In this document: piece after piece, positions 9,503 to 11,272 of the stretch
Layout: every line of letters starts with the position of its first letter
How positions within the stretch are numbered: position 1 is the first letter of the stretch
Source: a virus
Lineage: Duplodnaviria > Heunggongvirae > Uroviricota > Caudoviricetes
IMG/VR virus record: IMGVR_UViG_2690316311_000002
Length of the DNA stretch: 11,272 nucleotides
Reading direction: 5' to 3' (one strand)
Program-made: the position numbers and the translations under genes
The notes under the pieces: generated by a model
Database searches by the model: none
What the model was told of the DNA's origin: nothing
What the model saw: the letters and a program-made list of their open reading frames with translations, nothing else

Positions 9503-9988
9503 CTACCTGATATTACTGCTACTGTTGCATGTTACCGTGTTTCCAAATCCTGAATTGCAGTTTGTATATGTGTCAACGCGTGTTGGGTAAGGTTGAGTTA
9601 TAACAGGCTGGCGCGCTTTTTGCTCGATCGCTTGCATTGTGTTTACAGCCTGATAATTCAATAAAGCCTGCTGGAATGCTTGGCTTTGTGCTATTTGTTG
9701 GGCTTGTTCTTGGCTTTGTAATTGAACATAAAGATTCTGAAGCTCAAGTCTTGCCTGTGCGTCACTTATCTTGCCTTCATCGACACCTTTCCCGAGCATC
9801 TTTGCAGCAAGGACATACAGCTTAGGTGTTGGTGCTGATGCCATGCGTGAGTCGTTCTTCACACTGGCATCAAGGCAATTAGCCATATCGCTAAGCTTTT
9901 GATAGCGTTGTTCGCAACTTGCTTGATAGTCACTTACTTTTGCGCATCCAACCAGCAGAAACGGGATAATTAACAGTGATTTTTTCAT
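9503..9988 (-). CDS. Predicted outer-membrane lipoprotein, uncharacterised accessory gene (candidate superinfection-exclusion or lysogenic-conversion factor)
   Basis: Start chosen at the internal ATG (9988..9986) rather than the track's upstream ATG, because AAGGAG lies about 10 nt upstream and the product then begins MKKSLLIIPFLLVGC: a basic n-region, hydrophobic core and lipobox L-V-G-C (signal peptidase II type). Residue +2 after the lipid Cys is Ala, not Asp, implying Lol sorting to the outer membrane in E. coli-type hosts. The mature part has a Gln-rich helical segment and four further Cys. Opposite strand to all structural genes. Confidence 0.7.
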   Translation of the reverse strand: MKKSLLIIPFLLVGCAKVSDYQASCEQRYQKLSDMANCLDASVKNDSRMASAPTPKLYVLAAKMLGKGVDEGKISDAQARLELQNLYVQLQSQEQAQQIAQSQAFQQALLNYQAVNTMQAIEQKARQPVITQPYPTRVDTYTNCNSGFGNTVTCNSSSNIR

Positions 9989-10058
9989 ATGGTTAACTCT
10001 CCTTAGTTTTTCACAGGATATCATGAAGGCAATGCCATTTTAGCCGGAAACTAGATTT

Positions 10059-10325
10059 CTATGTTTCCTTTTTATTATTGCTATACATGGTCTTAAGCGT
10101 TTCAAAAACCATTTTCTTAACCATATCAGATTGTTGTTCTGCCATACGCTCTGCATCATCAATGTAAACGGATGCAGAGCTTTGTTTAGCCAACGATTCT
10201 TCAATCGCTGCAATTATCTCTGAGTTCAGCGACCTGTTATTCATCTTCGCGCGCTGTTTAATTTTCGCGTGGAGTTCATGCGGAAGTCTCAAGTGAAACT
10301 GCGCCTCGTCGTATTTGCTGTACAT
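10059..10325 (-). CDS. mnt: Mnt-like ribbon-helix-helix transcriptional repressor (Arc/MetJ superfamily)
   Basis: Translation from the ATG at 10325..10323 gives MYSKYDEAQFHLRLPHELHAKIKQRAKMNNRSLNSEIIAAIEESL...DDAERMAEQQSDMVKKMVFETLKTMY, which aligns with P22 Mnt as I recall it (...FNFRMPMEVREKLKFRAEANGRSMNSELLQIVQDAL...DAERLADEQSELVKKMVFDTLKDLY). GAGG lies 8 nt upstream of this ATG; the track's longer start (10358) has no RBS and adds 11 residues absent from Mnt. Confidence 0.85.
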   Translation of the reverse strand: MYSKYDEAQFHLRLPHELHAKIKQRAKMNNRSLNSEIIAAIEESLAKQSSASVYIDDAERMAEQQSDMVKKMVFETLKTMYSNNKKET

Positions 10326-10446
10326 CCTTGATGCCTCACCAGTTGGGTGGAATGGCATCGTAACCTACTGGATAAATACTCAATAGTACCATTTCGGTAT
10401 GCAATCACATCATGGTTGCATCATATCATTCTTCTGGAGCAATGAA
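10326..10446. promoter_or_regulatory. Divergent intergenic region between mnt (leftward) and tailspike (rightward); presumed promoter/operator region
   Basis: 121-bp AT-rich spacer between divergent starts. Contains inverted repeats GATGCC-N18-GGCATC (10330..10359) and ATGCAA-N11-TTGCAT (10399..10421) and the tailspike RBS GGAG (10436..10439). No convincing sigma-70 -35/-10 pair could be fixed by eye, so exact promoter positions are not called. Confidence 0.4.
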
Positions 10447-11272
10447 ATGTCAGATATCACCGCAAATGTTGTGGTCAGCATGCCTTCGCAACTCTTCACT
10501 ATGTCTCGCTCTTTTAAAGCCGTAGCCAATGGAAAAATTTATATCGGTAAAATTGACACTGACCCGGTAAATCCAGAAAACCAGATTCAGGTTTATGTGG
10601 AAAACGAAGACGGTTCTCACGTTCCTGTTTCGCAACCAATCATCATTAACGCTGCTGGTTACCCTGTATATAACGGACAGATTGCCAAGTTCGTAACTGT
10701 GCAAGGCCATTCTATGGCTGTTTATGATGCATACGGTGCGCAGCAGTTCTATTTTCCGAATGTGCTAAAGTATGATCCAGATCAGTTTAAGGGCAATCTC
10801 CTGAGCGAAGATCACTCACTTGGCGACTCTCTAGTCATGCATAACCCACAGTTTGTCGATAGCACATCGACCATTCTCTCAAAAAAGCTAACTATCGACC
10901 TGAGGACGCTTACAGACTACGGGTTTGCTGAGGGAAACACCGGTGCTCAGAACAAAGCTGCATTTCAGAAGGCTATTGATGATGCTACGTTGCCAACTGA
11001 GATTGTTATACCAGAGGGGGCGTTCATTGTTGACCCTGGTATTACGATTAAGAATACTGTCACCATGATACGAGGTGCTGGCGCATATCAGTCCAGAATT
11101 TTCTCTACGGGTACAGCGGCACCGATAATCACGCAACAAGATGGGGTAATTACGTTCTGCGAGTTCAGGGACTTTGGTCTTGACGGAAATGGCTACGCAG
11201 CTAACGGCATCAGTCTTACTGAAGCCAACCACATTAAAATAGAAAATATTGACGTGGTTAATACTAATAACA
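10447..11272 (+). CDS. Tailspike protein (P22 gp9-like head-binding domain plus a divergent receptor-binding/catalytic domain), 5' partial, continues past the window
   Basis: Translation from the ATG at 10447 gives [97 protein letters not shown]...[10 protein letters not shown], closely matching the P22 tailspike N-terminus I recall ([59 protein letters not shown]...). GGAG lies 7 nt upstream. Absent from the ORF track only because it has no stop in the window. Confidence 0.9.

What the first reader, a model, noticed from the sequence alone, without database searches (positions are those of the whole stretch)
9503..9988. Uncharacterised outer-membrane lipoprotein gene inserted antisense between the ejection genes and the tailspike
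This is the only gene in the structural arm on the opposite strand, and it sits where P22 carries sieA/immI, a known hotspot for superinfection-exclusion cargo. The product has a clear lipobox (LLVGC) with Ala at +2, predicting an outer-membrane lipoprotein, followed by a Gln-rich helical segment and a C-terminal region with four Cys (possibly two disulfides). I do not recognise it as Bor, Cor, Lom, Llp or Rz1. An outer-membrane lipoprotein expressed from a P22-like prophage could block a secondary receptor or the trans-envelope channel formed by incoming ejection proteins, much as T5 Llp and Cor lipoproteins block FhuA. By eye the gene looks AT-richer than the flanking structural genes, but I did not compute this.
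Basis: partly seen in the sequence, partly recalled or inferred. Interest (0 to 1): 0.85.

Follow-up and report, generated by a model that had tools for sequence, protein, structure and literature searches.

The report
Uncharacterised prophage lipoprotein in the sieA slot
A P22-like prophage of E. coli O26 carries, exactly where phage P22 keeps its superinfection-exclusion gene sieA, a small gene for a predicted outer-membrane lipoprotein of a protein family nobody has studied; a near-identical copy is transcribed from a resting prophage, so it probably protects or modifies the host envelope, but its function is untested.

Summary
The gene is real: 9503-9988, minus strand, 161 aa, strong RBS, lipobox LLVG|C with Ala at +2, under purifying selection. 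The mnt repressor gene (10059-10325) is also on the minus strand. The four mature Cys form an N-terminal pair and a C-terminal pair.

The gene sits in the exact slot and orientation of P22 sieA but is unrelated to SieA. It matches only phrog_6067 (function unknown), with no Pfam, NCBIfam, PADLOC or PDB relative. The model shows a four-helix bundle next to the lipid anchor, a Gln-rich spacer of variable length, and a C-x8/9-C beta-hairpin.

Every Enterobacterales locus with readable flanks has it between gene 16 and the tailspike, often just downstream of mnt. A distant member overlaps the stop codon of a CI-like repressor in an unrelated temperate phage.

Published RNA-seq for the 96%-identical LF82/Gally ortholog shows prophage expression, about 4.5-fold above background in LB and higher in macrophages.

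The gene is in 186 of 5426 complete E. coli genomes; the two sieA types are in 35 and 21.

Best reading: a prophage-expressed envelope lipoprotein, most likely blocking phage DNA entry. That function is inferred, not shown.

The parts
9503..9988 (-). CDS of the lipoprotein precursor (161 aa plus stop; RefSeq WP_000749284, annotated 'hypothetical protein')
   Evidence: ORF and translation. RefSeq annotation in the 100%-identical O26 genome. Full-length match to phrog_6067, E 1.6e-110. dN/dS well below 1.
9997..10004 (-). Shine-Dalgarno sequence AAGGAGAG, 8 nt upstream of the ATG
   Evidence: Read directly from the sequence. It lies inside the block shared with phage Gally, 10005-9504.
9944..9988 (-). 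Signal peptide with lipobox (MKKSLLIIPFLLVG|C; Cys15 is the predicted acylated first residue of the mature protein)
   Evidence: PROSITE-style lipobox match. Conserved across the family, and +2 is never Asp.
9689..9943 (-). N-terminal helical-bundle domain (precursor residues 16-100), with conserved Cys25 and Cys38 and the KLYxLxA...ISDxxARxELQxxYV motif
9575..9688 (-). Gln-rich helical stalk and Pro-rich linker (residues 101-138), a spacer of variable length
   Evidence: 32% Gln over residues 85-125. Low to medium pLDDT. The distance from the KLY motif to Cys3 varies from 36 to 101 residues across the family, and there is no clear heptad pattern.
9506..9574 (-). C-terminal mini beta-hairpin (residues 139-161; T-x-C144-x9-C154-x7), an exchangeable module
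   Evidence: Cys3 and Cys4 are nearly invariant, with 8-9 residues between them. Two strands are predicted at pLDDT about 60. C-terminal types are decoupled from N-terminal identity.
9504..10005 (-). Extent of the mobile cassette (RBS plus CDS) shared with phage Gally at 94% DNA identity; the flanks on both sides are unrelated
   Evidence: blastn of the window against the Gally locus. Upstream regions are not conserved between loci.
10059..10325 (-). Mnt-type ribbon-helix-helix repressor gene, directly upstream on the same strand (70-bp gap); arc and ant are absent
   Evidence: Pfam Arc 1.1e-14 and Repressor_Mnt 3.9e-12. 47% identical to P22 Mnt and 90% to Sf101 Mnt. RefSeq calls it 'Arc family DNA-binding protein'.
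10425..10453 (-). Candidate sigma-70 promoter (CTGACA-17-AATGAT) upstream of mnt that could drive an mnt-lipoprotein transcript
   Evidence: Consensus scan only. Two sites were found in the region against 2.6 expected by chance, so this is weak.
7641..9488 (+). Ejection protein gp16, convergent with the lipoprotein gene (14 bp between the stop codons; no terminator-like hairpin found)
   Evidence: phrog_770, E 6e-279. P22 comparison. Terminator scan found none.
10447..11272 (+). Start of the tailspike gene (P22-type head-binding N-terminal domain), which runs off the window
   Evidence: Sequence. RefSeq 'phage tailspike protein'. tblastn across loci.

Best explanation
The gene encodes a prophage-expressed accessory ('moron') lipoprotein.

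Predicted biogenesis and structure:
- After signal peptidase II cleavage, the protein is lipidated at Cys15.
- Because +2 is Ala and never Asp, the Lol pathway should sort it to the inner leaflet of the outer membrane.
- A disulfide-stapled four-helix bundle sits right at the anchor.
- A Gln-rich spacer of variable length projects a small C-x8/9-C beta-hairpin into the periplasm.

Predicted expression: in the lysogen it is made together with, or next to, the lysogeny repressor Mnt.

Most likely function: superinfection exclusion at the DNA-entry step. It would interfere from the outer-membrane side with the trans-envelope conduit built by incoming ejection proteins (gp7, gp20, gp16), or with a host envelope component that conduit needs. 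That would make it a functional replacement for the inner-membrane protein SieA in the same genomic slot.

SHOWN: gene, lipobox, domain architecture, slot, cassette mobility, purifying selection, and transcription of the ortholog from a prophage.

INFERRED: outer-membrane location, disulfides, and the exclusion function and its target.
For: 1. Same slot and orientation as P22 sieA. SieA types A and B are absent from every lipoprotein-bearing locus held.
2. Every Enterobacterales-clade locus with readable flanks (about 20) has the gene between gene 16, convergent, and the tailspike.
3. It follows mnt by about 25 bp or less, or overlaps it, in at least six loci: L002, L019, L021, L024 and L040/41. 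In O104:H4 the order is mnt, a 104-aa ORF, then the lipoprotein.
4. A distant member (123 aa, phrog_6067 E 2.8e-17) overlaps the stop codon of a CI-like HTH repressor. That repressor is divergent from cro and replication genes in an unrelated temperate phage. Another member is adjacent to an integrase.
5. Ortholog LF82_138/GALLYPH_13 (PMC9928086, S1 Table):
   - LB: 70 normalised reads against a prophage median of 15.6. This is second only to the C2 repressor.
   - log2(fpkm+5): about 6.1 in LB, 8.6 in macrophages at 6 h, 10.3 in the MB1 samples.
   - The adjacent gp16 stays at 3.6-4.1 throughout.
6. It is a discrete RBS+CDS cassette with unrelated flanks, and its C-terminal module is exchangeable. 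Both are typical of accessory and arms-race genes.
7. The lipobox is conserved with no Asp at +2, and most members have four mature Cys. The AF2 architecture is given.
8. Established knowledge: several exclusion proteins are lipoproteins, namely T5 Llp, phi80/N15 Cor, TP-J34 Ltp and F TraT. SieA blocks the gp16/gp20 conduit (PMC10883804).
Against: - There is no functional data for any family member.
- There is no sequence or fold similarity to any known exclusion protein.
- The slot also holds cargo of unknown or different function, such as orf62 in phage L, or nothing, as in Sf101. Position alone is therefore weak evidence.
- Some distant family members lie in apparently chromosomal contexts, next to parE-like and oxyR-like genes and next to gltX. 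This hints at a cellular rather than anti-phage ancestral role.
- The protein does not co-vary with gp16: it is 96% identical in Gally, where gp16 is only 34% identical.
- In LB the ortholog fell just below the authors' 5-fold moron cut-off.
- No promoter or terminator was convincingly predicted inside the window's cassette.
Confidence: 0.4

Rival explanations
1. It is a lysogenic-conversion factor for host fitness or virulence, not phage defence. On this reading it is an envelope lipoprotein that helps the lysogen under host-imposed stress (macrophage, serum, envelope stress), in the manner of lambda Bor/Iss.
For: The ortholog is induced about 6-fold in macrophages at 6 h and about 16-fold in the MB1 samples relative to LB. 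The gene is carried by pathogenic lineages: EHEC O26, O104:H4 2011C-3493 and AIEC LF82. Chromosomal-looking contexts of distant members suggest a cellular role.
Against: The induction affects all five rightmost Gally genes on both strands, including mnt and the tailspike. It may therefore be regional derepression rather than dedicated regulation. In Enterobacterales the gene is seen only in P22-like prophages, always abutting gene 16. There is no similarity to Bor/Iss, Lom/PagC or TraT. It also occurs in non-pathogenic and environmental isolates.
Confidence: 0.28
2. It is a receptor-masking lipoprotein of the Llp/Cor type. It would bind the periplasmic face of a host outer-membrane protein, for example OmpA, OmpC or a TonB-dependent transporter. 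This would block adsorption or triggering by unrelated phages or colicins, rather than act on the P22-type ejection conduit.
For: The predicted outer-membrane inner-leaflet location is where Llp acts. Like Llp, it is a small, disulfide-containing lipoprotein. The variable C-terminal hairpin types could track variable host targets. Sf6 uses OmpA/OmpC as secondary receptors (own knowledge).
Against: There is no sequence relationship to Llp: the 8a60_B match covers the signal peptide only, E 0.13. Pfam shows no other Sie lipoprotein either. The fold is helical rather than Llp-like. The strict linkage to gene 16 is not explained.
Confidence: 0.15
3. It has a role in the phage's own lytic cycle or virion. 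Examples are a lysis or spanin-like component, or protection of progeny from re-adsorption to debris.
For: T5 Llp has been proposed to protect progeny. The gene lies within the late-gene arm.
Against: The gene is on the strand opposite the late operon. It is transcribed while the late genes are silent. It is absent from many fully functional P22-like phages such as P22, L and Sf101. It is not similar to Rz1.
Confidence: 0.05

Closest known systems
P22 SieA (superinfection exclusion A; types A, B and C; PMC10883804)
   Same: Identical genomic slot and orientation: immediately after, and convergent with, gene 16, and upstream of gene 9. Similar size (161 aa against 162-164 aa). Prophage-expressed. 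Envelope-located. Never seen together with it in the loci examined.
   Different: SieA is an integral inner-membrane protein with 3-4 transmembrane helices, no signal peptide, and the cytoplasmic motif FxRYPxEAxxFNK. This protein has one cleavable lipoprotein signal, no transmembrane segment in the mature part (maximum KD19 0.45) and no such motif. Profile-profile probability is 0.2%.
T5 Llp and phi80/N15 Cor (outer-membrane lipoproteins that block FhuA)
   Same: Small phage-encoded lipoproteins with outer-membrane sorting signals and disulfide(s). They act on the envelope to exclude phages.
   Different: No sequence similarity beyond the signal peptide. This protein is larger and two-module, with a helical bundle, a spacer and a hairpin. 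Llp is made early in a lytic infection. No FhuA link is known for P22-like phages.
Ltp of Streptococcus thermophilus phage TP-J34
   Same: A prophage-encoded, lipid-anchored, all-helical protein with a flexible linker, encoded in the lysogeny module. It blocks DNA injection by binding a protein ejected by the incoming phage. This is the closest analogue of the mechanism proposed here.
Lambda Bor/Iss and F-plasmid TraT
   Same: Outer-membrane lipoproteins encoded by mobile elements and expressed in the carrier state. They modify host surface properties: serum resistance for Bor/Iss and surface exclusion for TraT.
   Different: No Pfam match to Lambda_Bor or TraT at E <= 1. The architecture and genomic location are different.
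phrog_6067 (PHROGs v4, function unknown)
   Same: The window protein matches the whole profile (1-161 of 161, E 1.6e-110). All 34 diverse relatives tested match it as well.
   Different: The family has no annotation, no Pfam or NCBIfam model, and no characterised member. An exhaustive HMM search shows it is wider than the PHROG suggests: 242 representatives at 50% clustering.

Membership tests
Bacterial lipoproteins (signal peptidase II substrates) | N-terminal signal peptide with a positively charged n-region, a hydrophobic h-region and a lipobox [LVI][ASTVI][GAS]C | tested here: met
   MKKSLLIIPFLLVG|C matches the PROSITE PS51257-style pattern. So do 83/92 close and 111/142 distant relatives.
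Bacterial lipoproteins (signal peptidase II substrates) | Outer-membrane sorting: no Asp at +2 (the Lol avoidance signal in Enterobacterales) | tested here: met
   +2 is Ala in 77/83 close members and is never Asp in 194 members. Actual localisation is not testable with these tools.
Bacterial lipoproteins (signal peptidase II substrates) | Actual acylation and signal peptidase II cleavage (globomycin sensitivity, palmitate labelling) | not testable with these tools
   Requires experiment.
SieA (P22 superinfection exclusion A) | Located between genes 16 and 9 of a P22-like prophage, on the opposite strand to gene 16 | tested here: met
SieA (P22 superinfection exclusion A) | Three to four transmembrane helices and no cleavable signal peptide | tested here: not met
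   The only hydrophobic stretch is the signal peptide. The maximum Kyte-Doolittle 19-residue mean in the mature protein is 0.45.
SieA (P22 superinfection exclusion A) | Conserved motif FxRYPxEAxxFNK and sequence homology to types A, B or C | tested here: not met
   The motif is absent here. It is present in P22 SieA and in HS1 SieA. hhalign probability is 0.2%.
SieA (P22 superinfection exclusion A) | Blocks DNA injection by P22-like phages | not testable with these tools
   Requires plating, K+ efflux and DNA-entry assays.
Known phage or plasmid exclusion or conversion lipoproteins (Llp, Cor, Bor/Iss, Rz1, TraT, Ltp) | Sequence or fold homology to the family | tested here: not met
Moron (autonomously expressed prophage accessory gene) | A discrete insertion relative to related phages | tested here: met
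   Sf101 has 90%-identical mnt and no gene in the slot. Homology with Gally is limited to 10005-9504.
Moron (autonomously expressed prophage accessory gene) | Transcribed from the prophage while lytic genes are silent | tested here: met
   This comes from published RNA-seq of the 96%-identical ortholog, not of this strain. It is 4.5-fold above the prophage median in LB and higher in macrophages, while gp16 stays at background.
Moron (autonomously expressed prophage accessory gene) | Own promoter and terminator | tested here: inconclusive
   No consensus promoter was found in the 70-bp gap and no terminator-like hairpin. The upstream DNA is not conserved. In the window, transcription probably comes from the mnt promoter. 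In Gally the gene must have its own promoter, because an opposite-strand gene separates it from mnt and it is expressed more highly than mnt.
phrog_6067 | Full-length match to the profile | tested here: met
   E 1.6e-110, residues 1-161 of 161.

The most novel reading that the evidence does not exclude
This would be a new, widespread family of outer-membrane-anchored prophage lipoproteins and a second, structurally unrelated solution to P22-type superinfection exclusion. The helix bundle sits under the outer membrane. The tethered, disulfide-stapled C-terminal hairpin, which is swapped between alleles, captures or caps the ejection-protein conduit (gp7/gp20) as it emerges into the periplasm. 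In E. coli it would be the dominant exclusion gene at this slot: 186 genomes against 56 for sieA types A and B combined.
Probability: 0.25. Interest if true: 0.7.

Novelty: new variant of a known kind. Interest (0 to 1): 0.5.

Why it matters
- Only about a third of sequenced P22-like phages carry sieA (PMC10883804). What the others use at this slot is unknown.
- This gene is the commonest of the three slot occupants counted in complete E. coli genomes: 186 of 5426, against 35 for sieA type A and 21 for type B.
- Carriers include EHEC O26, the O104:H4 2011 outbreak strain and AIEC LF82.
- The LF82 ortholog is transcribed from a resting prophage and rises in macrophages.
- If it is an exclusion protein, it gives an outer-membrane-side handle on how the gp7/gp20/gp16 conduit is built. 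It would also matter for phage therapy and typing of these pathogens.
- If it is a host-fitness factor, it is an unrecognised lysogenic-conversion gene. The LF82 study narrowly classed Gally as having no morons.
- Either way, the assays already established for sieA can test it directly.

Tried and rejected
- SieA homology: rejected. hhalign probability is 0.2%, and there is no motif and no transmembrane helix.
- Known lipoprotein and exclusion families through Pfam, NCBIfam, PADLOC, and PDB sequence and profile searches: nothing found. The NCBIfam GspK hit (18.8 bits against a cut-off of 130) and the 'GspK' name on one Cronobacter entry come from the Gln-rich low-complexity helix.
- Fold searches:
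  - Foldseek against the PDB and BFVD gave nothing below E 0.1.
  - The afdb50 library was unavailable.
- Rfam and terminator or promoter scans of 9300-10600: nothing meaningful.
- Coiled-coil heptad check of the stalk: no register stands out.
- Co-variation with gp16: rejected.
- Plasmid carriage: essentially none. Of two records, one is a 1.4-Mb 'plasmid'.
- Wider context surveys:
  - The genome-contig scan gave only 5 loci.
  - Alignment A3 was too divergent for pattern scanning.
  - Two extra IMG/VR scans added nothing new.
- Literature searches by accession, locus tag and PHROG id: no paper mentions the protein. Topic searches found nothing on it. The LF82 CRISPRi preprint does not report on Gallyph_13.
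Full report
WHAT THE WINDOW IS

The window is the late (structural) arm of a P22-like (Lederbergvirus-type) prophage.
- It is 100% identical over the 1201-bp probe (9300-10500) to E. coli O26 chromosomes such as RM10386.
- The gene order is coat, gp4, gp10, needle gp26, gp14, then the three ejection proteins: gp7 (5536-6228; Pfam P22_gp7, 1.8e-134), gp20 (6238-7644; Inj_translocase, 1.4e-77) and gp16 (7641-9488; phrog_770).
- Two minus-strand genes follow: the finding's ORF and an mnt homolog.
- The tailspike then starts at 10447 on the plus strand and runs off the window.
- In the source genome an acyltransferase, intS and tRNA-Arg follow.

CHECK OF THE OBSERVATION

The ORF at 9503-9988 (minus strand, 161 aa) is real.
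- It has AAGGAGAG 8 nt before the ATG.
- RefSeq annotates exactly these coordinates as WP_000749284, 'hypothetical protein'.
- The 36-nt in-frame upstream extension to 10024 is not supported by any homolog.
- The precursor begins MKKSLLIIPFLLVG|CAK. This fits the lipoprotein pattern, as do 83/92 close and 111/142 distant relatives. None of them has Asp at +2, which is the inner-membrane retention signal.
- Pairwise dN/dS is 0.06 against Gally and 0.26 against O104:H4. In more distant pairs synonymous sites are saturated or nearly so, and where dS could be estimated dN/dS is 0.15-0.19. This indicates purifying selection on the protein.

Three details in the finding are wrong or weak.
- The mnt homolog (10059-10325; Pfam Arc 1.1e-14 and Repressor_Mnt 3.9e-12) is also on the minus strand.
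- The four mature Cys are two near the N-terminus (25, 38) and two near the C-terminus (144, 154).
- The gene's GC content (43.6%) is lower than the head and tail genes (49-52%) but not lower than its immediate neighbours.

ANATOMY OF THE PROTEIN

Two AlphaFold2 runs agree. The second used a 129-sequence alignment and reached a mean pLDDT of 81.
- Mature residues 1-90 form a confident helical bundle (pLDDT about 87-98) that starts two residues after the lipidated Cys. It contains the invariant Cys25/Cys38 pair.
- The last helix continues as a Gln-rich stalk (32% Gln over residues 85-125).
- A Pro-rich linker of low confidence follows.
- The chain ends in a two-stranded hairpin carrying Cys144 and Cys154 (pLDDT about 60).

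Across the family:
- The bundle motif KLYxLxA...G.ISDxxARxELQxxYV and the terminal T-x-C-x8/9-C-x1-7 hairpin are conserved.
- The spacer between them varies from 36 to 101 residues.
- Within the Enterobacterales clade the C-terminal 35 residues come in discrete types (...CNSSSNIR...CQSY...CNSSY) that are decoupled from the rest of the protein. P0021 is 72% identical in the N-terminal part and 94% in the C-terminal part. P0025 is 89% and 25%. The gene is therefore itself mosaic, with an exchangeable C-terminal module.

WHAT IT IS RELATED TO

- The only library match is phrog_6067, function unknown, over its full length.
- Pfam, NCBIfam, PADLOC and PDB sequence and profile searches give nothing meaningful, for this protein and for 33 diverse relatives.
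- A word-indexed search found 94 homologs, and all that carry a source name are from Enterobacterales.
- An exhaustive HMM search found 242 cluster representatives at E <= 1e-3, most of them 125-140 aa with the same architecture. This is a sizeable, unnamed family.

GENOMIC CONTEXT

P22 itself reads 16(+), sieA(-), orf59a(-), mnt(-), arc and ant(+), 9(+). sieA starts its reverse-strand ORF 22 bp after the gene 16 stop. In the window the lipoprotein gene takes precisely that place, 14 bp after the gene 16 stop.

It is not SieA.
- SieA is a 3-4-transmembrane-helix inner-membrane protein with the motif FxRYPxEAxxFNK (PMC10883804).
- I confirmed the motif in P22 SieA and in the E. coli HS1 type B protein.
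- It is absent here, the mature protein has no hydrophobic segment, and the profile comparison gives 0.2% probability.

The synteny is consistent.
- In every Enterobacterales-clade locus I could read with flanks, the gene lies between a convergent gene 16 and the tailspike. These loci cover Escherichia, Salmonella, Serratia, Yersinia, Providencia, Tatumella and Proteus, plus IMG/VR contigs.
- None of these loci contains sieA type A or B.
- Sf101, whose mnt is 90% identical, has an empty slot. Phage L has a different small ORF there.
- Against phage Gally, DNA homology is confined to 10005-9504, that is RBS plus CDS, at 94% identity with unrelated flanks. Gally's gp16 is only 34% identical.
- The gene therefore behaves as a discrete mobile cassette.

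LINK TO LYSOGENY REPRESSORS

- In most P22-like loci the gene is co-directional with, and downstream of, mnt. The gap is about 25 bp or less, or the genes overlap, in at least six loci.
- In O104:H4 the order is mnt, a 104-aa ORF, then the lipoprotein.
- In a distant P22-like metagenomic contig, the start of a member only 31% identical to the window protein overlaps the mnt stop.
- In an unrelated temperate phage (IMG/VR L022/L023), a 123-aa member overlaps the stop codon of a CI-like HTH repressor. That repressor is divergent from cro-like and replication genes. This is the position that rexAB holds in lambda.
- Other distant members sit next to integrases or an AlpA-like gene.
- Against a purely phage-borne picture, two short metagenomic contigs place members between housekeeping-type genes: parE-like and oxyR-like in one, gltX in the other.

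EXPRESSION

The 96%-identical ortholog in AIEC LF82 (LF82_138 = GALLYPH_13) has published RNA-seq values (PMC9928086, S1 Table).
- In overnight LB it gives 78 and 62 normalised reads against a prophage median of 15.6, about 4.5-fold above it.
- That makes it the second most expressed Gally gene after the C2 repressor. It falls just under the authors' 5-fold cut-off, which is why they reported Gally as moron-free.
- log2(fpkm+5) rises from about 6.1 in LB to 8.6 in THP-1 macrophages at 6 h, and to 10.3 in the samples labelled MB1.
- The convergent gp16 stays at 3.6-4.1 throughout.
- In Gally an opposite-strand gene separates the lipoprotein gene from mnt, and it is expressed more strongly than mnt in LB. 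There it must have its own promoter.
- In the window no consensus promoter is found in the 70-bp gap and the upstream DNA is not conserved between loci. Read-through from the mnt promoter is therefore the likelier source. This is inference.
- Caveat: all five rightmost Gally genes, on both strands, are induced in macrophages. This may be regional derepression.

PREVALENCE

- By DNA search the gene is in 186 of 5426 complete E. coli genomes, including O26, O104:H4 2011C-3493 and LF82.
- P22-type sieA is in 35 genomes and HS1-type sieA in 21.
- About 540 genomes match some part of the 9300-10500 probe.
- Among about 50,700 phage records, only five P22-like phages carry the gene.
- It is essentially absent from plasmids.

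INTERPRETATION

Shown:
- It is a conserved, selected, prophage-transcribed gene for a lipoprotein precursor with an outer-membrane-type sorting signal.
- It has a distinctive bundle-spacer-hairpin architecture.
- It moves as a cassette into the sieA slot of P22-like phages and into repressor operons elsewhere.

Inferred:
- It resides in the inner leaflet of the outer membrane.
- It forms two disulfides.
- It acts on the envelope for the benefit of the lysogen.

I commit to superinfection exclusion at the DNA-entry step as the most likely function (confidence about 0.4). The reasons are the slot equivalence with sieA, the apparent absence of both genes from the same locus, the lysogeny-operon linkage in two unrelated phage types, the precedent of lipoprotein exclusion factors, and the allelic C-terminal module.

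The main rival is a host-fitness or virulence conversion factor (about 0.28). The macrophage induction and the chromosomal relatives keep it alive. A receptor-masking role like that of Llp or Cor is a variant that cannot be excluded (about 0.15).

NOVELTY AND SCORE

The kind of element is known: prophage lipoprotein cargo that may exclude phages. The family, fold arrangement and slot usage are not described anywhere I could search. I rate it a new variant of a known kind. It is of moderate interest because it is common in important E. coli pathotypes and can be tested directly with assays that already exist for sieA.

Noticed in passing
window 10059-10446: An 'orphan' mnt. The Mnt-type repressor gene is present, but arc, ant and the sar antisense RNA of the P22 immI region are absent. 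Only about 120 bp separate mnt from the tailspike start. What Mnt represses here is unclear. Sf101 has the same arrangement.
   Followed up: partly
window 10092: There is a mosaic junction inside the 3' end of mnt. Homology to Sf101 at 97% identity runs from 10500 to 10092 and stops 33 nt before the mnt stop codon.
   Followed up: partly
window 10059-10358; phrog_795: PHROGs, and through it many RefSeq phage records, label Mnt homologs 'partition protein ATPase'. For an 83-99-aa ribbon-helix-helix repressor this looks like a propagated mis-annotation.
   Followed up: no
window 9489-9502: gp16 and the lipoprotein gene converge with only 14 bp between their stop codons, and no terminator-like hairpin was found. 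Late transcription that continues to the tailspike would be antisense to the lipoprotein and mnt mRNAs. That could shut the gene off during lytic growth. This is inference from P22 biology.
   Followed up: no
window 7641-9488 (gp16), especially 8700-9150: gp16 has a GC dip to 40% at 8700-9150. Residues 70-331 also match a PHROG labelled 'transglycosylase' (phrog_29864). gp16 is the most divergent structural gene between loci, at 31-34% identity where the lipoprotein is 55-96% identical.
   Followed up: no
L003 (phage Gally) 3447-3866; LF82_139 / GALLYPH_14: A 139-aa hypothetical gene lies on the opposite strand between mnt and the lipoprotein gene in Gally. It is even more strongly induced than the lipoprotein gene: log2 from about 5.5 in LB to about 11 in the MB1 samples. 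It is absent from the window. Function unknown.
   Followed up: no
L013 (O104:H4 2011C-3493) 4012-4326: A 104-aa hypothetical ORF (WP_000820795) is inserted between mnt and the lipoprotein gene on the same strand and overlaps the mnt stop. The three genes look like one operon.
   Followed up: no
L048 (E. coli HS) 40898-49001: A BREX-1 system (brxA, brxB, brxC, pglX) lies about 8 kb beyond the HS1 P22-like prophage, next to a type I methyltransferase (HsdM family) gene and IS elements.
   Followed up: no
L037 1383-1775 and L043 4980-5462 (metagenomic contigs): Distant family members lie in what look like ordinary chromosomal neighbourhoods: between parE-like and oxyR-like genes in one, and next to gltX in the other. 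The family may have a cellular origin outside phages.
   Followed up: partly
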